Virus record (IMG/VR): IMGVR_UViG_3300025934_000015
Coordinates: 1 to 64,000 of that record
Origin: a virus
Lineage: Duplodnaviria > Caudoviricetes
Strand: one strand, 5' to 3'
DNA length: 64,000 bases
Numbering within the stretch: position 1 is the stretch's first letter; each line of letters begins with the position of its first letter. The notes beneath the pieces are model-generated. The model searched no databases and had not been told where the DNA came from. It saw only the letters and a program-made list of their open reading frames with translations. Shown one piece after another: positions 8,932 to 26,531 of the stretch. Made by a program: the position numbers and the translations under genes.

Positions 8932-10263
8932 TCATTCACCCTCGGCCGCTTCTGGTGCGACGACTGTGTCCCACAATCCTCCGTCCGGTCGAAGGTCGCC
9001 TGGGACTTCCGTGGCATAGAGCGGTGCCACGCCACTAATCCGGCGGCGTGCCATGTCGGCGTACTTGGGATTCAGCTCAATGCCGATGAAATTCCGGCCC
9101 TGTCGAATGGCCGCGACGCCGGTCGTGCCACTGCCGGTAAAGGGATCGAGGACCGTATCACCCGGAATAAGTGCGCACTTGCAATTGACAATCCCTAGCG
9201 TCTCCAGACAATCGCAGCGCGTGCCCTCGGCACGACTGGACGCGAGGATGCACGGCAGGATCAGATCCTCGCTGAATGTGGCAAAGTGGGCTTCCTTGAA
9301 TGACTTCGTGGAGACTCGCCAGACGGTGCGTTTGTTCCGCTTGCCACGCGGAGCCACACCGCCGTCCGCTTCGCGCCACCGCTCACCATCATTGCGTTGG
9401 GTTTCCACCATATGCAACGAGCGCTTCCGCGCGTTCTCGATGATGCGCTTTTTCACTTCGGACGGATTCTGCACGCCTGCCGCCTCGTAGTCCTTCAGTC
9501 CGAGCCCGTCGTAGCCGTCCTCGATCTGTTTCTGCATGGCCTCCGAGGCCTCTTCCGCGATAGCGTCGCCGTTCCAGTAGTAATCCGATGACTTGGTGAG
9601 GACGAAGATGTACTCGTGCGCCTTGGTGAGTCGATCCGTGATGGACTCGGGCATCGGGTTGGGTTTGTCCCAGATCACATCGTTCCGCAGATACCACCCT
9701 TCGTCGCGGAGCGCGAACGCCACGGCCCACGGAATGCCGAGGAGATCTTTTGGTTTGATTTTGTCTGGCAGGATGCGCTTCTTCGATGGGTAGAAGGTTT
9801 CGTTCTCACGGATGAACTTGCCTTGGAATCCGCCGACCTTCGTGGGATCCCCGAGGCCGACGTTCGCGTAGGAGTCCCCGAGGTTTAGCCACACCACGCC
9901 ATCATCGCGCAACACCCGCCAGACTTCGCGGAAGACATCCACCAGGGCTTCGACGTATTGATCGGGCGTGTCCTCCAGTCCAATCTGATCGTCCTGCCGG
10001 ACTGCGCCGCACTTGGGACAGACCGAGCCATAGCCGACTTCCACGGATCCGGCGTTGGTCTGTTGCTTGCGGCTGTTCGGCGCATTATTGGCCTCGGTGA
10101 TCCGCTTGTGGTCACACGCCGGATCTCCGCCTTCCCACTCGCCGGTGCCGTAGTCCCGGAGACCGTAGTAGGGCGGCGACGTCACCACGCACTGCACGGA
10201 CGCCGATCGGAGTTCTTTCAGTTTCTTGCGCGTATCTCCGACGAGAATGCGATACGTATTCAC
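8932..10263 (-). CDS. DNA N4-C/N6-A methyltransferase (beta class) with Cys-rich inserts
   Basis: VTSPPYY precedes [11 protein letters not shown]; GTG start overlaps the upstream stop. Confidence 0.92.
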
Positions 10264-10478
10264 GGGTCGATACCTAGCTCCTTGAAGGACCAATACTCAA
10301 TGGAAATGTAGCAGGCGCAGCGTGTCCCGCCACAAAAGCACCGAAAGAAATCGAGGGTGACGCCATCATCAAAAATGTCAATCACTTGTCCGGACTCGCC
10401 ACCACGCGTGAACTGATCATCGGGGACGGTAAGGACTTGTCCCAGATGCACGTCCGCCCGCGTGAAGGGCTGGGTCAT
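10260..10478 (-). CDS. Hypothetical protein
   Basis: Start/stop overlaps on both sides. Confidence 0.55.
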
Positions 10479-11545
10479 CGAATGACCGTCAACACGTTCA
10501 GGAAGTTGTCACCATCGGTCAACAGGAGCGCGGCCTGCGGGGTTTTCAGATGGATGTCGATCGTCTTGCCGATCGCGGCCTCGAGAAACTGGAGGAGCAT
10601 TTTCCAGTTCACGGTCATGGTAATGTCGTCGCCCTCGTAGACCGTGGACACCGTTTCGTCGGCGTCCCCGACTTGGGCACTGCTCGACGTGATCGTCACG
10701 CTGCCATTCGTGAACGCCAGGGACATGGCCCGCTGGGTTTCGTCCGCGACCAGTCCTACACGACGCAGCGCCGACGCCAGCGCCATGCGACTGATTGTAA
10801 CCTTCTTGTCGTAGTCCTTCGGGATGATGCGCTCGTAGGCCGGGAACTTGCCATCGACCTGCCGGGAGAAGAGCGTGCGGTCGCCCATCTTGAAAAACAG
10901 TAGCCGATCGCCGCGCGAGAACTGGATATCGCCGTCCGCATTGAAGGTGCTGATGATATCCATCGTTTTGAGCGGCACCAGCGCCGACGTCGGCTCGCCC
11001 TGCACGCCCTGGACCCGGGCCACGGCCAGCCGTTTGCCGTCTGTAGACACCATGGACAGGCTACCCTCCAACAGCGAGATCAACGCGCCGCTGAGTTCAT
11101 GTCGCTCACCCTTTTCGGAGATGGCGTAGCGCGTTTTGTCAATCAGGCTGTGGAACAGGTTGGACGGCAGCGTGATCGGTGTGCCTTCCATGGTCGGCCA
11201 CGCCGGAAAGTCCCCGGCAGGCAGCGACTGGAGGCGGGACTTGAAGCTGCCGCAGGCCAGATGCACAATCGTGCCTTCCTGGGTGATGCGGACGTCGGCG
11301 TCTGGCATCTGATCGACGATGGCGAGGAACTTCTTGGACGGCAGCGTGACGGTGCCTTTGACCGGCACCCAGGCATTGCACGACGTCATCAACCCCGCTT
11401 CGAGATCCGTGGCCGACAACCGCAACTGATCGTCAGCGGTCAGCAGGACGTTACCCAGGACAGCGAGAGATGGTTTCGTCGGGACCAGCTTGTCGATCAA
11501 CTTCAGTTCCTGGGCAAGTAGCTGGGTGTTCACGGTCACATCCAT
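10475..11545 (-). CDS. dnaN: DNA polymerase III beta sliding clamp (phage-encoded)
   Basis: LSATDLE, VSTDGKRLA, GKFPAYERIIP; 356 aa is typical of a beta clamp. Confidence 0.93.
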   Translation of the reverse strand: MDVTVNTQLLAQELKLIDKLVPTKPSLAVLGNVLLTADDQLRLSATDLEAGLMTSCNAWVPVKGTVTLPSKKFLAIVDQMPDADVRITQEGTIVHLACGSFKSRLQSLPAGDFPAWPTMEGTPITLPSNLFHSLIDKTRYAISEKGERHELSGALISLLEGSLSMVSTDGKRLAVARVQGVQGEPTSALVPLKTMDIISTFNADGDIQFSRGDRLLFFKMGDRTLFSRQVDGKFPAYERIIPKDYDKKVTISRMALASALRRVGLVADETQRAMSLAFTNGSVTITSSSAQVGDADETVSTVYEGDDITMTVNWKMLLQFLEAAIGKTIDIHLKTPQAALLLTDGDNFLNVLTVIR

Positions 11546-11723
11546 CGGGCGCTCCTATTCTTCATTCATCCAAATCACAAGGTATTCGGTGACAATGTAC
11601 GTGGCGGCACCCATCACGGACATGTCGCAGATGGTGAGTGGGACCACGGCTACCAGATGCGACCGGGGCGATCGCGCCAAGTCGTCGAGGAACTCCGCCA
11701 CGTGTGCGGCGAGAATCGATTGA

Positions 11724-12440
11724 CTATGATGGCGCGTCATCGTACTCTAGATCCAACACGTTCTGGCCCAGCCGCTTCGCCGCCAACTCACACCACTTTT
11801 CTTCCAGCTCAATGCCGATGGCGCGACGCCCGAGGTTCTTCGCGGCACGAAGAGTCGTGCCGCTGCCCATGTAGGGATCGATCACCAAATCGCCTTTGTT
11901 GCTGTGGCGCAGCATGAACCGTTCGATGAGGCCTTCTGGTTTCTGCGTGGGGTGCCGTTTGTTGCGGCACACCGGGTGCCGCTCGATGTTCACGGTAAAT
12001 CCGTCCGCATTCCAGACCGCAGGTTTACCATGTTTGACCAGCCACACGATCCACTCGGTTGCGGAGACGTAGCCCGGTCGCGCCGCCGGACTCGGGTTGG
12101 TTTTCTCCCACACGATGGTGCCGCGCGACTTGAGCCGTTCGGTCTCCTTGAATTCCGAGATCATCCAGTCGCTACAGAAGGACAGCAGTGATCCCCCCGG
12201 GTACAGCAGGTCTGCGGCCGGAATCAGCAAGTCCTCGGGATTCCATCCGTAGTCCCACTGGCCGAAGTCCCTGGTCATGTCCGCCCGGTCGCTGAACACG
12301 ATATCGTCCGGCACGCTGATGTTATACGGCGGGTCCGTCAGGATGAGCCGCGCAATCCCCTGGCCTAACGTCGGCAGAATCTGCCGCGCGTCGCCCTGGT
12401 AGATCACGAGGTCGTCTTGGCGGTAGTAGGGTGTTACCAT
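11724..12440 (-). CDS. DNA methyltransferase (beta class)
   Basis: LTDPPYN, HPTQKP, IDPYMGSGTT, AIGIEL. Confidence 0.92.
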   Translation of the reverse strand: MVTPYYRQDDLVIYQGDARQILPTLGQGIARLILTDPPYNISVPDDIVFSDRADMTRDFGQWDYGWNPEDLLIPAADLLYPGGSLLSFCSDWMISEFKETERLKSRGTIVWEKTNPSPAARPGYVSATEWIVWLVKHGKPAVWNADGFTVNIERHPVCRNKRHPTQKPEGLIERFMLRHSNKGDLVIDPYMGSGTTLRAAKNLGRRAIGIELEEKWCELAAKRLGQNVLDLEYDDAPS

Positions 12441-17399: not shown

Positions 17400-17843
17400 T
17401 CATTCCTTCGCGATGACTCCGGACGTGTACAACCGACGGAGACACGCGAGAATATTCCGACGCTCGTCGTGTTTGAGCGCGGCGACGATTTGTGGAGTAC
17501 GTTGACGAGGGTGCAGCAGGATATAGGTAAGGACACGTTCATTCAACGATCCGGCGCGATAGGTGGGCGCATCCTTGGCCACCCAGCCCGGCAGGACTAG
17601 GCGGGCCGGTGAATCCGGATGTGTATCAGACGGCGGACCGGCTGTCAAGGCCGTTTCCGCGTCCGCCTCCGACAAGATGGGCAAGATCGCGTCCGCGCCA
17701 ATCGACACGCCCTTCGGGAGCGTGCGATTGACGCGTGACCGTTTGTACTTCCGCAGGGGCACAATGTACGCGCGGCACGTATTGACGTGCTCCACGCGAT
17801 GTGGCGTGCCGTTGTAGAGAACCAGCAGGCCCGGCTTCAGCAC
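17400..17843 (-). CDS. Hypothetical protein, possible C-terminal winged helix
   Basis: Start overlaps the Ro60 stop; basic helical C-terminus. Confidence 0.55.
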   Translation of the reverse strand: MLKPGLLVLYNGTPHRVEHVNTCRAYIVPLRKYKRSRVNRTLPKGVSIGADAILPILSEADAETALTAGPPSDTHPDSPARLVLPGWVAKDAPTYRAGSLNERVLTYILLHPRQRTPQIVAALKHDERRNILACLRRLYTSGVIAKE

Positions 17844-19354
17844 TCCGTCGTTTCTACTTCACGCACGAAGTCGATGACGCGCTCCGACCACCCGTCCACA
17901 TGCGTCCACGGACCATACCCGACGCCCGTGCGATTGGACGCCACGTTGATCACGTAGCCCTTGCCCCTCGGGTTCGGAGGCGTATCCTGCGACTGTTCAT
18001 CGGTGATGACAATCAGGCGATCGTACGGTTCCTGATTGAGCCGACGGACCGCAGCGCCCAGCAGGGTCGCTGCCGCCGGAACCTGCGACTTGAGCGCATC
18101 CGCCAGGGCGATGCCGAGATAGTTCGGCACCTCTTTCATCACGCTCGAAAAGACGAAGATGCGGGACTCATCCGACAGCGCCCGGCAGATGATCGCCACC
18201 GCCGCTGCCGCATCCAGCCGTGAGATCTCCGACTTGGCTGAGATCGGCTGGTTCATGGACGCCGACCCGTCCACCAGCACGATCGTGCGACCCGGCAGGC
18301 GCTCCATGCTTCCGAGGCACTTGACCATGGCCACGTCCAGCGCATCCACGAACCGCGGCGCGTAGCGTGCCGCCGCCAGGAACCGGAAGGGCAACACGCG
18401 CTCGGCGTTCATCGCGATCAGGGCCTGACGGATCAGGGTGTCGTTGACGCCCGCCTCGGTCATGTTCCGCAGGTTGCGCAACAGAGCCAGCGCGCCCAGC
18501 TTCCGCTCCTCGATCAGACGCGTGAACGTCGCCTTCTTGTCGGCACCACCCGACAGCGCGACCTCCCACGTGTCCGGCGTCGGCAGCGTGCCATACACGA
18601 GCTGATTGAAGATCGACTCCTGCGTCCGCAGCTCGTTGACCGGCGAGAGCGTCGAGGCCCGCTCGGCCCGCCGTGCCGCCCTGGTGTAACCCTTCCGGCC
18701 GTCCGTCGGTTTGGCGTGCGACAGAAAGAGTACGTCGCGCAGCTTCACCGGCGTGTCGCGATTGTACTTGGCCAACTGATAGGGGCTGAACCGCGTGAAC
18801 GCCCGCGCTAGTCCCTTCTTGACCTGGGCCGACAGCGGCGTCCGCGTCAGGGTCACCGTCGTACCCGCGCCCTTGCACAGCCGACAGGGCGTGGTTCCAC
18901 GCTGGGCCCGCAGCCGCTTCAGGACCGACTGCGACGTGACCTTACACGCCGGGCACGGCACGCGCGGGCCCTGCCAGTAGAGCGCGAGGAACTCTGCCAA
19001 CTCGTCGGCGCGCTGAATGATGCCGTCCAGGGTCTCGGCCACGTAGGGTTTGAGGCTCGGCGTGCGCGCCATCTCCCGGACAATCAGCAGCGGCACGTGC
19101 CGCAGCTTCATCGCGGTGCGCGCTTCGATCGCCAGCTTCGCGACCGCCTGCGGATTCGTGGCCCCGACTTCGACGGTCAGCCGACGAATGCGGTCGGCAA
19201 TGCCTTCCCCCGACTCGTAGAATTCATCTTCCCACAGCAGGCAGGAAAGCACCGAGCGTCGCAGCGCCTGCAGCGGCGTGATCGTGCGGGTGAGTCCGCC
19301 CTCGTGCGTGGTGTCCGTGAACGGGTTGCTCGGGCCGATGTTGACGCGCGACAT
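17837..19354 (-). CDS. rsr: Ro60/Rsr TROVE-domain RNA-binding protein
   Basis: THEGG, LRRSVLSCLLWEDEFYESG, YQLAKY, LRDVLFLSHAKP, PDTWEV, ALLRNLRNM, LPFRF; vWA VDGSASM and LIVITDEQ. Confidence 0.95.
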   Translation of the reverse strand: MSRVNIGPSNPFTDTTHEGGLTRTITPLQALRRSVLSCLLWEDEFYESGEGIADRIRRLTVEVGATNPQAVAKLAIEARTAMKLRHVPLLIVREMARTPSLKPYVAETLDGIIQRADELAEFLALYWQGPRVPCPACKVTSQSVLKRLRAQRGTTPCRLCKGAGTTVTLTRTPLSAQVKKGLARAFTRFSPYQLAKYNRDTPVKLRDVLFLSHAKPTDGRKGYTRAARRAERASTLSPVNELRTQESIFNQLVYGTLPTPDTWEVALSGGADKKATFTRLIEERKLGALALLRNLRNMTEAGVNDTLIRQALIAMNAERVLPFRFLAAARYAPRFVDALDVAMVKCLGSMERLPGRTIVLVDGSASMNQPISAKSEISRLDAAAAVAIICRALSDESRIFVFSSVMKEVPNYLGIALADALKSQVPAAATLLGAAVRRLNQEPYDRLIVITDEQSQDTPPNPRGKGYVINVASNRTGVGYGPWTHVDGWSERVIDFVREVETTEC

Positions 19355-19392
19355 GTTGACCTCAGTTCAAACGTGCATTCGTTCGTGATAAC

Positions 19393-19534
19393 GTGGCCGG
19401 GAACTGACGACAATGGTGCTTGTGTAAACAATTGCTCTACCAACTGAGCTACACGCGGGTGTCTAATCCACGTGACCGGACTCGAACCGGCGACCCATTG
19501 TGTGTGAAGTACCCACTATCTTCGCCACGGCCAC
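19393..19534 (-). ncRNA. YrlA-like Y RNA 5 with complete permuted tRNA-like domain
   Basis: GTGGCCG/CGGCCAC terminal stem, GGCGAAG motif, T-arm GCCGG-TTCGAGT-CCGGT, loop-closed acceptor stem, D-arm TAGCTCAGTTGGTAGAGCA. Confidence 0.9.
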
Positions 19535-19539
19535 TGAGA

Positions 19540-19668
19540 TTGCCGGAGTCGAAAAATACTTCGCAATCAGTAACTCCAGATCACATCAGGAACTTGGCCA
19601 TGTTTTCACGCGGCAGAGCACCCTCAGATATGGAGGACGTTTCGCTACTAGATCTCCAACTCCGGCAA
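19540..19668 (-). ncRNA. Unassigned structured RNA inside the Y RNA array
   Basis: Long terminal stem TTGCCGGAGTTGGAGA/TTTTCGACTCCGGCAA enclosing a multi-hairpin junction; lacks the Y motifs; strand assumed from the operon. Confidence 0.6.
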
Positions 19669-19672
19669 ACAC

Positions 19673-19782
19673 GTTCCCGGGAACCGGCGACGACGGATCT
19701 ATGTGGAGTCGAACCACCAACAGTGAGCACGAGTCCCACCGCTGTCAACCAAGAAGTAGCCGTTCGTCTGCGCCACGGGAAC
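19673..19782 (-). ncRNA. Y RNA-like 4 (retains a T-loop hairpin)
   Basis: GTTCCCG/CGGGAAC terminal stem, GTGGCGCAGA...GCTACTTC, GTGG-TTCGACT-CCAC, 3' GTCGCCGGTTCCC. Confidence 0.8.
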
Positions 19783-19790
19783 CGATACAT

Positions 19791-19863
19791 GTTGCTGGGA
19801 ACTTGCGACAACGGGTGCTGTCTTCAGTATGAGTGAAGTAACCGCCATCTTCGCCACAGCAAC
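19791..19863 (-). ncRNA. Y RNA-like 3 (minimal, 73 nt)
   Basis: GTTGCTG/CAGCAAC terminal stem, GTGGCGAAGA...GTTACTTC, 3' TTGTCGCAAGTTCCC. Confidence 0.8.
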
Positions 19864-19873
19864 GTTTCACAAA

Positions 19874-20012
19874 TCCCGACGGGAACTAGCGACAACCGAG
19901 ATTTTTCGTGTGCTACCACTACACTACGTCCAAGTGTGACCCTGAACGGCCGGATTCGAACCGACCCCCCGTCATCCACAATGAAGTAACGGCTATCTAC
20001 GCCACGTCGGGA
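19874..20012 (-). ncRNA. YrlA-like Y RNA 2 with complete permuted tRNA-like domain
   Basis: TCCCGACG/CGTCGGGA stem, T-arm GTCGG-TTCGAAT-CCGGC, closed acceptor stem, D-arm TAGTGTAGTGGTAGCACA. Confidence 0.88.
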
Positions 20013-20021
20013 ACATGTATT

Positions 20022-20106
20022 GATGGCGGGAACTGGTGTCAGCGGTTGGGCTTGCGCCCATCTCTTTGCAAGGAAAAGAAGTAACCGCTCACGTCGCCAC
20101 GCCATC
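20022..20106 (-). ncRNA. Y RNA-like 1 (two small internal hairpins)
   Basis: GATGGCG/CGCCATC stem, GTGGCGACG...GTTACTTC, 3' CCAGTTCCC. Confidence 0.78.
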
Positions 20107-20120
20107 GATCAGAACTGCGG

Positions 20121-20150
20121 TTTATAACACGGAACAAAAACCGTTGTCAA
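20121..20150 (-). promoter_or_regulatory. Sigma70-type promoter of the Y RNA array/Ro60 operon
   Basis: TTGACA-N18-TATAAA with TGn extension, about 15 nt upstream of the first RNA. Confidence 0.8.
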
Positions 20151-20272
20151 GGTCGTTGTTTCGTCTGAGAAACCGCTGGCGCAGACCACATACGGGCCTG
20201 CGCCATGGTCAACACGGTCGGTGTGGATGCGGCGTCCGAGGAACCGGCCCCACCGCATCCGTCCGTGACGTG

Positions 20273-21018: not shown

Positions 21019-21351
21019 TTATTTTTTCCCGTGGCGCGCCTTGAGCACGGTATACGCAGCCGTGACCTGTTTAAAGCGCTCGGTCGCCGCCTCAACCGTG
21101 AGTCCGTGGACGGCGCAGCGGTCCGGATGACACGCCATGGATGCCGCCCGGTAGGCACGCAGCAGCTCCAGGGCGGTCACGGCCGGGCCCACGCCCAGGA
21201 TGGCCTCCGGCGACCGGCTGCCCAGCGTGTCGCGCGCTTCATCCAGCCCCATGGTTGCGGTGAAGGCCTCGCGCCACGACCGCGCGTCGCCGTAGCCCTC
21301 GACGTCCGGATTGTACGTCCGGTAGCCCGACATGAACGGTCGCTTCGCCAT
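21019..21351 (-). CDS. Stand-alone J-domain (DnaJ-like) protein
   Basis: ILGV...RAYRAASMACHPDR...FKQVTAAYTVL. Confidence 0.85.
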   Translation of the reverse strand: MAKRPFMSGYRTYNPDVEGYGDARSWREAFTATMGLDEARDTLGSRSPEAILGVGPAVTALELLRAYRAASMACHPDRCAVHGLTVEAATERFKQVTAAYTVLKARHGKK

Positions 21352-25736: not shown

Positions 25737-26531
25737 CTACAGTACGTGGTCCCACCGCACATGCCAGTAGCGCCCATCTTCCGTCAGTGACTGATAGGCA
25801 ATCACCAGCGTGCGACCAATCCACGCCGCTGGGTCAGCCGCAAACTTCCGCCGCCAGTCGGCGTTTAGTGTTTTGACGGTCACTTCGACGCCGCGGGCGT
25901 CGCGCGCCTTGACCTTGGCGTACGGACCGAGTTTGGCCGCTTCGTAGCCGGTAATGGTCACGGGTGCCGCCTTGGGCCGTTTGAACTTCACCCACTGCGG
26001 GGATCGTGCGCCTGCCTGATAGATGGCGCTCCAACGTTTCACCACCGCGCCTTCCTGTCCACTCTGGAACCACGATTGCAGCAGGGCGGCGTCGGGCGCG
26101 AACTGGTCGGCCACTGTGACCGCGCCGTCCGGATCGGTGTGCATGACGGCCAACACCAACAGCTCCCGGCGCTCGCGGAAGGGTTTCGCCTGGGCGCTAT
26201 GCGGTCCGACCATCAACATGTCGAATAGCACGCAGCGGACTAGATGCTGCTTGGACGCGTCCTTGACCGCGGTACACGGCATGCCGGGAATGTAGAACTC
26301 CCCATCGTAGTACCCCGGAGCCAATCGCGCCAATTGCATGGCAATCTGGACCGGAATGTCGGCGGCGTTGCCGTAGCGCGACCACGCGACGGCCGCGCCA
26401 CCCTCGGCCACCTGAATGTGCCGCCGCTGCCCATCGTATTTACGCTCCATGACAAACTTGTCATTGGTGTAATGCGCCAGGGAGTCGCCTTCTGGTAGTG
26501 CAGACGCGAGCATGGGCTTAATGAATGCCAT
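25737..26531 (-). CDS. ATP-dependent DNA ligase (minimal)
   Basis: ERKYDGQR (KxDG), YDGEF, LFDML, EGAVVK, WVKFK; promoter TTGACA-N17-TAGACT-N6-ATG. Confidence 0.9.
   Translation of the reverse strand: MAFIKPMLASALPEGDSLAHYTNDKFVMERKYDGQRRHIQVAEGGAAVAWSRYGNAADIPVQIAMQLARLAPGYYDGEFYIPGMPCTAVKDASKQHLVRCVLFDMLMVGPHSAQAKPFRERRELLVLAVMHTDPDGAVTVADQFAPDAALLQSWFQSGQEGAVVKRWSAIYQAGARSPQWVKFKRPKAAPVTITGYEAAKLGPYAKVKARDARGVEVTVKTLNADWRRKFAADPAAWIGRTLVIAYQSLTEDGRYWHVRWDHVL

What the first reader, a model, noticed from the sequence alone, without database searches (positions are those of the whole stretch)
19393..20150. Tandem array of five different Y RNAs co-transcribed with a phage Ro60
Seen: between a strong sigma70-type promoter and the Ro60 ATG lie five units sharing a scaffold: 5' GTGGCG(A/T/C)...G(G/T/C)TACTTC, 3' ...(A/G)GTTCCC, and 7-8-bp terminal stems whose sequences differ in every copy but always pair. 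Their inserted modules differ: two full permuted tRNA mimics (T-arm, loop-closed acceptor stem, D-arm), one with a T-loop hairpin, one with two small hairpins, and one minimal. Established: Ro60/Rsr binds Y RNAs, YrlA RNAs have this permuted tRNA-like domain and tether Ro to effectors such as PNPase, and some phages encode Ro with YrlA. Inference: one scaffold protein with a set of interchangeable RNA adaptors processed from a single precursor, perhaps acting as tRNA decoys against anticodon nucleases or redirecting host RNA decay. I know of loci with one or two Y RNAs, not five diversified ones.
Basis: partly seen in the sequence, partly recalled or inferred. Interest (0 to 1): 0.9.

Follow-up and report, generated by a model that had tools for sequence, protein, structure and literature searches.

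The report
Five-unit Y RNA array before phage Ro60
An uncultured 121-kb phage carries five small Y-type RNA genes in a row in front of its Ro60 gene, but rows of 3 to 8 such RNAs turn out to be the normal layout at Ro60 genes of phages and bacteria, so this locus is a typical member and not an exception.

Summary
On the minus strand, between a promoter-like site (20150-20121) and the Ro60 start (19354), lie five units. Each has a 7-8 bp terminal stem that differs in sequence but always pairs, a conserved handle (GUGGCG.AG...UACUUC / ...CG..AGUUCCC) and a different insert. U2 and U5 are YrlA-type permuted tRNA mimics, U4 has a T-arm only, U1 has two hairpins and U3 is minimal. They are the only copies in the 120.8-kb genome.

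They are best read as Y RNA genes transcribed as one precursor, cut at short AU-rich linkers, and bound by the phage Ro60.

A model built from these units finds 1-5 units (median 3) upstream of Ro60, on the same strand, in all 33 related viral contigs. It finds 8 in the published Caulobacter phages CcrColossus and CcrPW, 5-6 in Xanthomonas and Brevundimonas phages, and a mean of 3.8 (up to 8) at 80 bacterial rsr loci. The same insert classes recur there.

The papers I could search describe at most two characterised Y RNAs per bacterial or phage locus, so the array layout is under-described but common. This scan has noted such arrays before on other DNA.

The parts
20121..20150 (-). Promoter-like site: -35 TTGACA (20150-20145), 18-nt spacer, TGn plus -10 TATAAA (20126-20121). 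The predicted transcription start is near 20115, about 9 nt before U1.
   Evidence: Only match to this pattern in 64 kb on either strand, 0.01 expected. It is a consensus match only and was not listed by the stricter scan.
20022..20106 (-). U1, 85 nt: handle plus two hairpins (a CUUCUUU...AAAGAG hairpin and a GC-rich GCAA-loop hairpin). The Ro-helix motif reads GGCGACG.
   Evidence: R1 71.6 bits, R2 55.8 bits. The same insert class occurs in CcrPW, L002, L019 and L015.
19874..20012 (-). U2, 139 nt: handle plus a permuted tRNA mimic (T-arm GUCGG-UUCGAAU-CCGGC, 7-bp loop-closed acceptor stem, short D-arm GUGU-AGUGGUA-GCAC).
   Evidence: R1 105 bits, R2 98 bits. Rfam YrlA gives only 16.6 bits, E 2.2. 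It falls in a clade of 8 units from 8 phages, SH-aLRT 96.
19791..19863 (-). U3, 73 nt: handle plus one short hairpin (CUUCA-CUCAUAC-UGAAG). This is the minimal class. Motif GGCGAAG.
   Evidence: R1 69.9 bits, R2 58.4 bits. Minimal units of 65-75 nt are frequent in other arrays.
19673..19782 (-). U4, 110 nt: handle plus a hairpin and a T-arm (GUGG-UUCGACU-CCAC), with no D-arm. Motif GGCGCAG.
   Evidence: R1 86.8 bits, R2 60.5 bits. T-only units recur in other arrays (17 of 120 units). M. smegmatis YrlB also has a T-arm (PMC4201824).
19536..19672 (-). X, 137 nt: a long hairpin closed by a 16-bp stem, lying inside the array but without the handle. Function unknown.
   Evidence: MFE -52.8 kcal/mol, z -4.84, 0 of 200 shuffles fold as well. 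R2 gives no hit on this strand even with filters off. No Rfam hit at E up to 10. No similar sequence in 157 loci.
19393..19534 (-). U5, 142 nt: handle plus a canonical YrlA-type permuted tRNA mimic (T-arm GCCGG-UUCGAGU-CCGGU, 6-bp loop-closed acceptor stem, D-arm GCUC-AGUUGGUA-GAGC). Motif GGCGAAG.
   Evidence: Rfam YrlA 45.4 bits, E 1e-8, full length but below the gathering score of 69. R1 100.9 bits, R2 82.9 bits.
19355..19392 (-). 38-nt leader between U5 and the Ro60 start codon, with GAGG 5 nt before the ATG. No terminator-like site.
   Evidence: Sequence read directly. No stable fold, z 0.12. No terminator listed.
17837..19354 (-). Ro60/Rsr-type protein, 505 aa (TROVE domain plus a probable vWA domain). 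Its stop overlaps the start of the next ORF (17400-17843).
   Evidence: Pfam TROVE 55.6 bits (cut-off 23); vWA_Ro60 21.3 bits, below its cut-off. Thermus phage phiLo Ro60 structures 9KOP and 9L5Y, E 3e-17. 46% identical to TROVE proteins of Brevundimonas, Caulobacter and Xanthomonas phages.

Best explanation
This is an ordinary, fairly large example of an rsr/Ro60 operon with a polycistronic Y RNA array. One promoter drives a precursor that carries five Y RNAs (plus the unexplained element X) and probably continues into the Ro60 mRNA. Each unit is a complete Y RNA. Its 5' and 3' ends pair in a unit-specific 7-8 bp stem that would shield the ends. Next to that stem lies the conserved Ro-binding handle (the GUGGCG.AG strand facing ..CG.., a 3' GUUCC bulge, a 5-bp inner helix and the invariant UACUUC). 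Host nucleases probably cut the short AU-rich linkers and release the units. The phage Ro60 then binds the shared handle, and the different inserts offer different docking surfaces: two kinds of tRNA elbow/acceptor mimic, a lone T-arm and plain hairpins. By analogy with Ro60-Y RNA-PNPase particles, these would tether Ro60 to host RNA enzymes and so redirect RNA decay or quality control during infection. Shown here: the anatomy, covariation, strand, linkage to Ro60, and recurrence of the layout and insert classes. Inferred: transcription as one precursor, processing, Ro60 binding and partner recruitment.
For: Handle and stems pair with compensatory changes within the window and across 49 units from many phages. 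In that set the outer and inner helices are about 94% paired with all pair types, and 0 of 500 shuffles reach the covariation score; this alignment is fitted to the model. Frequent G-U pairs fit RNA on the Ro60 strand only. The five units are the only hits in the window and in the whole genome. 132 of 132 hits in phage loci and all 302 in bacterial loci lie on the Ro60 strand, nearly all within about 1.5 kb upstream. The GNCGAAN0-1G Ro-binding motif of Chen et al. (PMC4201824) is exact in U3 and U5 and one base off in the others, at a position that varies family-wide. U5 matches Rfam YrlA at E 1e-8. Linkers are 8-10 nt here and a median of 12 nt family-wide, with AU 0.62 against 0.48 in units. 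There is a unique promoter-like site and no internal terminator. ORFs over the array show no coding signal. Precedents: M. smegmatis YrlA and YrlB come from one precursor upstream of rsr, and phiLo Ro60 binds two phage Yrl RNAs and forms ternary assemblies with host PNPase (PMC12135203). The phage encodes no RtcB, RNA ligase or CCA enzyme, so any partner must come from the host.
Against: There are no expression, processing or binding data for this uncultured phage, and the host is unknown. No unit reaches the Rfam YrlA gathering score. The U1 Ro helix has two mismatches, and only U3 and U5 carry the exact published motif. The promoter is a consensus match whose -10 lacks the final T. Element X does not fit the model. 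In one relative (L026) a terminator-like hairpin separates the array from Ro60, so coupling to the Ro60 mRNA is not universal.
Confidence: 0.8

Rival explanations
1. The array is mainly a cis-acting leader. The repeated handles in the 5' untranslated region would be Ro60 binding sites through which the protein feeds back on its own mRNA, and not a source of stable trans-acting RNAs.
For: The units lie between the promoter-like site and the Ro60 start, with no terminator between them. The last unit ends 38 nt before the ATG.
Against: Insert classes, including full tRNA mimics, are conserved across distant phages and bacteria. That is hard to explain if only the handle mattered. YrlA and YrlB accumulate as discrete Rsr-bound RNAs in M. 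smegmatis. L026 has a terminator-like hairpin between its array and Ro60.
Confidence: 0.08
2. The tRNA-like units act as decoys or sponges for tRNA-directed host defences.
For: U2 and U5 copy the tRNA elbow and acceptor stem. Two distinct D-arm types are kept across phages. The phage has only 3 tRNAs.
Against: None of the inserts has an anticodon stem-loop, so nucleases that recognise the anticodon loop could not be decoyed. Three of the five units are not full tRNA mimics. The same arrays sit at chromosomal rsr loci of many bacteria, which argues for a general RNA-metabolism role and against a phage-specific counter-defence.
Confidence: 0.07
3. The region is a decayed tRNA gene cluster or a set of DNA-level repeats (iterons, recombination sites) next to the replication genes.
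For: T-arm and D-arm sequences are present. The array lies in a replication module with PolA, a clamp, a ligase and methyltransferases. Published records call single 'tRNA' genes inside such arrays.
Against: ARAGORN finds no tRNA there. The arm order is permuted (T, acceptor, D), as in YrlA. The conserved part is the non-tRNA handle. The helices covary and use G-U pairs, which only make sense as RNA on one strand.
Confidence: 0.02

Closest known systems
Bacterial and phage YrlA/YrlB Y RNAs with Rsr (Ro60): Salmonella, M. smegmatis, mycobacteriophages, CcrColossus (Chen et al. 2014, PMC4201824; Rfam RF02553)
   Same: Encoded just upstream of rsr on the same strand. The end-pairing stem carries a GNCGAA-type motif. 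One or more units carry a permuted tRNA-like domain (T arm, acceptor stem, D arm), accompanied by hairpin-type or T-arm-only units. In M. smegmatis they are processed from one precursor.
   Different: There are five units plus X, against the two characterised per species. The handle has its own well-conserved version (UACUUC, a 3' GUUCC bulge, an extra outer stem). All units score below the Rfam gathering threshold, so standard annotation misses them.
Thermus phage phiLo Ro60 with Yrl1 and Yrl2 (PMC12135203; PDB 9KOP, 9L5Y)
   Same: A phage-encoded Ro60, and the best solved-structure match to this protein (E 3e-17), with Y-like RNAs upstream that carry a CGAA motif. It was shown to bind them and to form ternary assemblies with host PNPase.
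   Different: phiLo has two units and no tRNA-like domain is described for them. Sequence identity to this Ro60 is low.
Unannotated arrays in published phages: Caulobacter phages CcrColossus and CcrPW (8 units), Brevundimonas phage Kikimora (6), Xanthomonas phage 10KY502B (5)
   Same: Same handle, same strand and position relative to Ro60, and the same mix of short, T-only and T+D units.
   Different: Ro60 is only 44-47% identical. The unit inserts are at most about 60-65% identical. None has an element like X by sequence.
Deinococcus radiodurans Yrn1/Yrn2 and metazoan Y RNAs
   Same: Several Y RNAs per genome (2-4 in vertebrates; four small RNAs upstream of rsr in Deinococcus). Ro binds the terminal stem and Y RNA tethers Ro to PNPase.
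   Different: The handle sequence differs, the tRNA-like arms are oriented differently, and the genes are not arranged as a tight tandem array.

Membership tests
YrlA-type Y RNA (Rfam RF02553; Chen et al. 2014) | Encoded within about 4 kb of a Ro60 ortholog, on the same strand | tested here: met
   All five units lie 39-750 nt upstream of the Ro60 ATG on the minus strand.
YrlA-type Y RNA (Rfam RF02553; Chen et al. 2014) | Stem formed by the 5' and 3' ends that carries the GNCGAAN0-1G motif | tested here: met
   The end-pairing stems covary. The motif is exact in U3 and U5 (GGCGAAG) and one base off in U1, U2 and U4, at a position that varies (A, U or C) across 49 related units.
YrlA-type Y RNA (Rfam RF02553; Chen et al. 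2014) | Permuted tRNA-like domain: T-arm, loop-closed acceptor stem, D-arm | tested here: met
   Met for U2 and U5. U4 has only a T-arm, and U1 and U3 have none; those three resemble the YrlB/Yrn2 hairpin type and are not YrlA proper.
YrlA-type Y RNA (Rfam RF02553; Chen et al. 2014) | Score at or above the Rfam gathering threshold (69 bits) | tested here: not met
   U5 scores 45.4 bits (E 1e-8), U2 16.6 bits (E 2.2), and the others have no hit. Units of the published Ro60 phages also stay below 69 bits, so the threshold excludes this whole phage group.
YrlA-type Y RNA (Rfam RF02553; Chen et al. 2014) | Bound by Rsr/Ro60 in vivo; carries tRNA-type modifications or is processed by RNase P and the CCA enzyme | not testable with these tools
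   This needs RIP, Northern blots or modification mapping. U2 has the 7-bp acceptor stem that Chen et al. link to RNase P cleavage.
Ro60/Rsr protein (TROVE + vWA ring) | TROVE (HEAT-repeat ring) domain | tested here: met
   Pfam PF05731, 55.6 bits against a cut-off of 23. phmmer to phiLo Ro60 (9KOP), E 3e-17 over residues 174-502.
Ro60/Rsr protein (TROVE + vWA ring) | C-terminal vWA domain | tested here: inconclusive
   PF25045 vWA_Ro60 scores 21.3 bits against a cut-off of 27.7, E 2.8e-4. The alignment to the Ro60 chain 9NEN covers residues 334-455, E 4e-5. The MIDAS residues were not examined.
Ro60/Rsr protein (TROVE + vWA ring) | Closed ring fold | not tested
   No structure prediction was run; the sequence homology was judged sufficient.

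The most novel reading that the evidence does not exclude
Arrays at Ro60 genes are a conserved kit of several adaptors. The recurring insert classes would each dock a different host enzyme onto one Ro60 ring. These classes are the minimal hairpin, the hairpin plus GC tetraloop hairpin, the T-arm only, and two old subtypes of tRNA elbow mimic with different D-arms. Element X would be a further partner RNA of a new kind that lacks the handle.
Probability: 0.3. Interest if true: 0.65.

Novelty: new member of a known kind. Interest (0 to 1): 0.35.

Why it matters
This locus by itself adds one more phage Ro60/Y RNA operon. The wider point is that Ro60 genes of phages and bacteria usually come with 3-8 tandem Y RNAs that share one handle and draw on a few recurring insert classes. 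The papers I could search characterise at most two such RNAs per bacterial or phage locus, and Rfam's YrlA threshold misses these units. Published phage records leave the region blank or call a lone 'tRNA' inside it. A better model would correct those annotations. Culturable systems such as Caulobacter with CcrColossus could be used to find out what each adaptor class recruits.

Tried and rejected
1. A DNA search of the array against 50,697 phage records gave no real relative, only a 66-nt match to an Enterococcus phage.
2. Rfam at gathering thresholds finds nothing in the array.
3. I tested whether X is a divergent unit. R2 with filters off gives no hit on the array strand and only an 8-bit, E 0.13 hit on the opposite strand. 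blastn against 157 loci and the rest of the window gives nothing. X does contain the words GUAGCGAA and AAGUUCC in the right order, but the Ro helix would not pair, so I leave it unexplained.
4. I tested whether position in the array predicts unit kinship. The labels first, last and only are not clustered on the tree (25 changes against 26.7 in shuffles). Only one split is well supported.
5. I looked for phage-encoded partner enzymes. No RtcB, RNA ligase or CCA-adding enzyme was found, and the neighbours are replication and methylation genes or unknowns.
6. The supplementary tables of Chen et al. 2014, which would give per-genome YrlA counts, and the 2020 Annual Review are not held. I therefore cannot say how many copies per phage those authors listed.
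7. A GAAG/CUUC pairing inside the handle was considered and dropped: the CUUC side is invariant while its partner position varies, so there is no covariation.

Full report
**What is there.**
The window is the first 64 kb of a 120.8-kb IMG/VR virus record (59.9% GC, rated complete) with no close cultured relative. Its PolA is at most 28% identical to any phage record. The ORF at 17837-19354 on the minus strand is a Ro60:
- Pfam TROVE scores 55.6 bits against a cut-off of 23.
- The best solved-structure match is the Thermus phage phiLo Ro60, E 3e-17.
- It is 44-47% identical to TROVE proteins of Brevundimonas, Caulobacter and Xanthomonas phages.

Read on the minus strand, the 760 nt upstream hold five units, each with GTGGCG, TACTTC and GTTCCC in register:

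| Unit | Coordinates (minus strand) |
|---|---|
| U1 | 20106-20022 |
| U2 | 20012-19874 |
| U3 | 19863-19791 |
| U4 | 19782-19673 |
| U5 | 19534-19393 |

**Is it more than chance?**
- In the five-way alignment the scaffold has three helices: a terminal stem, a six-pair 'Ro helix' (UGGCGA facing UCGYCA) followed by a five-base 3' bulge (GUUCC), and a five-pair inner helix.
- The scaffold is 93% paired. The terminal stem is 100% paired, with compensatory changes at 6 of its 7 pairs.
- No shuffle out of 500 reaches the observed values, and sliding the register drops pairing to 26-64%.
- A covariance model built from the five units (R1) hits only these five places in the window, at 70-105 bits. 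A broader model (R2) hits only these five in the whole genome.
- ORFs that overlap the array have no third-position GC bias (0.50-0.56, against 0.71-0.86 in real genes) and no Pfam match.
- The array is 54.5% GC, against about 66% for its neighbours.

- U2 and U5 carry a T-arm, a loop-closed acceptor stem and a D-arm in the YrlA order.
- U4 has a T-arm only, U1 has two hairpins and U3 has one short hairpin.
- U5 matches Rfam YrlA over its full length (45.4 bits, E 1e-8), though below the gathering score of 69. U2 matches only weakly (16.6 bits).

Between U4 and U5 lies X (19672-19536), 137 nt closed by a 16-bp stem.
- It folds at -52.8 kcal/mol, z -4.84.
- It matches neither the scaffold models on this strand, even with filters off, nor any Rfam family, nor any fetched locus.
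- Gaps of similar size in two other arrays (L005, L002) turned out to be divergent scaffold units that the model had missed.
- X has only the words GUAGCGAA and AAGUUCC, and its Ro helix would not pair. It stays unexplained.

**Transcription.**
- TTGACA-18 nt-TGn-TATAAA at 20150-20121 is the only such site in 64 kb, with 0.01 expected. It places a start about 9 nt before U1.
- The stricter consensus scan does not list it, because the -10 ends in A.
- The linkers are AAUACAUGU, UUUGUGAAAC and AUGUAUCG. At 8-10 nt they are too short to hold promoters of their own.
- No terminator-like site lies between U1 and the Ro60 ATG.
- Upstream of the promoter, two strong hairpins follow the previous gene.
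- The Ro60 stop overlaps the start of the next ORF, and PolA follows.

A single precursor that runs into Ro60 is therefore a reasonable inference, but it is not shown.

**How common is this?**
This is the decisive point. The Ro60 protein retrieved 33 viral contigs with Ro60 at 32-59% identity over the best-matching segment, mostly 39-47%.
- With R1, all 66 hits were on the Ro60 strand, within about 1 kb upstream.
- With R2 at E <= 0.01, every one of the 33 loci has units: 1 unit in one locus, 2 in nine, 3 in eleven, 4 in seven and 5 in five. The median is 3. All 132 hits of that search, which also covered four published phage records, were on the Ro60 strand.
- Counts in published, cultured phages:

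| Phage | Units |
|---|---|
| Caulobacter CcrPW | 8 |
| Caulobacter CcrColossus | 8 |
| Brevundimonas Kikimora | 6 |
| Xanthomonas 10KY502B | 5 |

- In those records the region is blank, or carries a lone 'tRNA' call that lies inside a unit.
- At 80 bacterial rsr loci (best matches Acidobacteriaceae and Caulobacterales, Ro60 40-51% identical) R2 finds 302 units at E <= 0.001, all on the Ro60 strand, a mean of 3.8 per locus.
- There are eight units in L193, L211 and L215, and five in the isolates Granulicella aggregans and Caulobacter sp. KR2-114.
- These counts are lower bounds.

**The family.**
- Across 49 units from many phages the handle consensus is GUGG(C/U)G-N-AG, four variable bases, a five-pair helix, and UUACUUC on the 5' side. 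On the 3' side it is the helix partner, C-G-(C/U)YU and GUUCC(C), all enclosed by a variable stem.
- The outer and inner helices are about 94% paired and use all pair types, with many G-U pairs. That alignment was fitted to the model, which favours the structure somewhat.
- Unit lengths are bimodal, at about 65-95 and 130-140 nt, and most arrays mix the two.
- The window's inserts belong to recurring classes. The U1 type (CUUC-UUU...AAAGA hairpin plus a GC tetraloop hairpin) is also seen in CcrPW, L002, L019 and L015. The U3 minimal type is frequent.
- The tRNA-like units split into two subtypes on the one well-supported branch of the tree (SH-aLRT 96). The U2 type has a short D-arm (UCGUCUAGUGG-UAGGACAC-like), which from memory resembles the D-arms of Glu/Asp/Gly-type tRNAs. 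The U5 type has GUAGCUCAGUUGGUAGAGC.
- Position in the array does not predict kinship.
- Linkers have a median of 12 nt and are richer in A and U than the units (0.62 against 0.48; higher in 24 of 28 loci).

**Mechanism.**
Established knowledge:
- Ro60 binds the terminal stem of Y RNAs, and Y RNA tethers Rsr to PNPase.
- YrlA carries a tRNA-like domain that is handled by tRNA enzymes.
- M. smegmatis YrlA and YrlB are processed from one precursor upstream of rsr (PMC4201824).
- The phiLo Ro60 binds two phage Yrl RNAs and, together with each of them, forms ternary assemblies with host PNPase (PMC12135203).

Applied here, one precursor would be cut in the AU-rich linkers and the ends trimmed back to the outer stems. 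Ro60 would bind the shared handle, and the inserts would recruit host partners. The phage itself encodes no RtcB, RNA ligase or CCA enzyme. The proposal of decoys against anticodon nucleases is unlikely, because the inserts lack an anticodon arm and the same arrays sit in bacterial chromosomes.

**Comparison and verdict.**
This is a new member of a known kind. It is a phage rsr operon whose Y RNAs include YrlA-type and YrlB-type units, larger than the two-RNA loci characterised in the papers I could read, but average for the family in sequence data. I found no paper that describes the multi-unit arrays or their insert classes. However, the supplementary tables of Chen et al. and the 2020 review were not available to me. 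This scan has already noted Ro60-linked RNA arrays on other DNA many times. I treated those notes as leads and rely on my own tests. Interest is therefore moderate to low for this window. The general phenomenon and element X are the parts worth following.

Noticed in passing
window 19536-19672 (-): Element X: a 137-nt long hairpin (16-bp closing stem, z -4.84) inside the array. It has no handle, no Rfam match and no relatives among the fetched loci. It contains GUAGCGAA and AAGUUCC, so it could be a decayed unit.
   Followed up: partly
window 20160-20272 (-): Two strong GC-rich hairpins (20258-20223 and 20205-20178; the stretch as a whole has z -3.0) between the stop of the upstream 217-aa ORF and the array promoter. 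They may be terminators without a U-tract.
   Followed up: partly
L156 1673-1740; L157 2311-2385; L158 2301-2368: 'tRNA-Gln' in CcrColossus, 'tRNA-Ser' in Kikimora and 'tRNA-Thr' in Xanthomonas 10KY502B each lie inside a Y RNA unit (R2 hits 1668-1834, 2312-2445 and 2296-2429). They are probably tRNA-like inserts miscalled as tRNA genes.
   Followed up: partly
L157 5886-6231 (+): Brevundimonas phage Kikimora carries a permuted tmRNA about 2 kb downstream of its Ro60 (Rfam tmRNA_permuted, 57.7 bits, above the gathering score of 47).
   Followed up: no
L026 3945-3972 (+): A strong terminator-like hairpin (12 pairs plus a U-tract) sits between the last Y unit and Ro60 in this relative. The window has none, so coupling of the array to the Ro60 mRNA varies between phages.
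   Followed up: no
window 17400-17843 (-): A 147-aa ORF whose start overlaps the Ro60 stop, which suggests translational coupling. It has no Pfam or PHROG match. I did not check whether it travels with Ro60 in relatives.
   Followed up: no
window 8932-12440, 21019-21351 and 25737-26531 (-): The neighbourhood is a replication and modification module: two DNA methyltransferases, a sliding clamp, PolA, an ATP-dependent DNA ligase, and a small DnaJ-domain protein (110 aa).
   Followed up: partly
L164-L243 (bacterial loci): The closest cellular Ro60 homologues (50-51% identity) are in Acidobacteriaceae MAGs and isolates, with GC content similar to this phage. This is a weak hint about the host. I did not check whether these loci are chromosomal rsr genes or prophages.
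   Followed up: no
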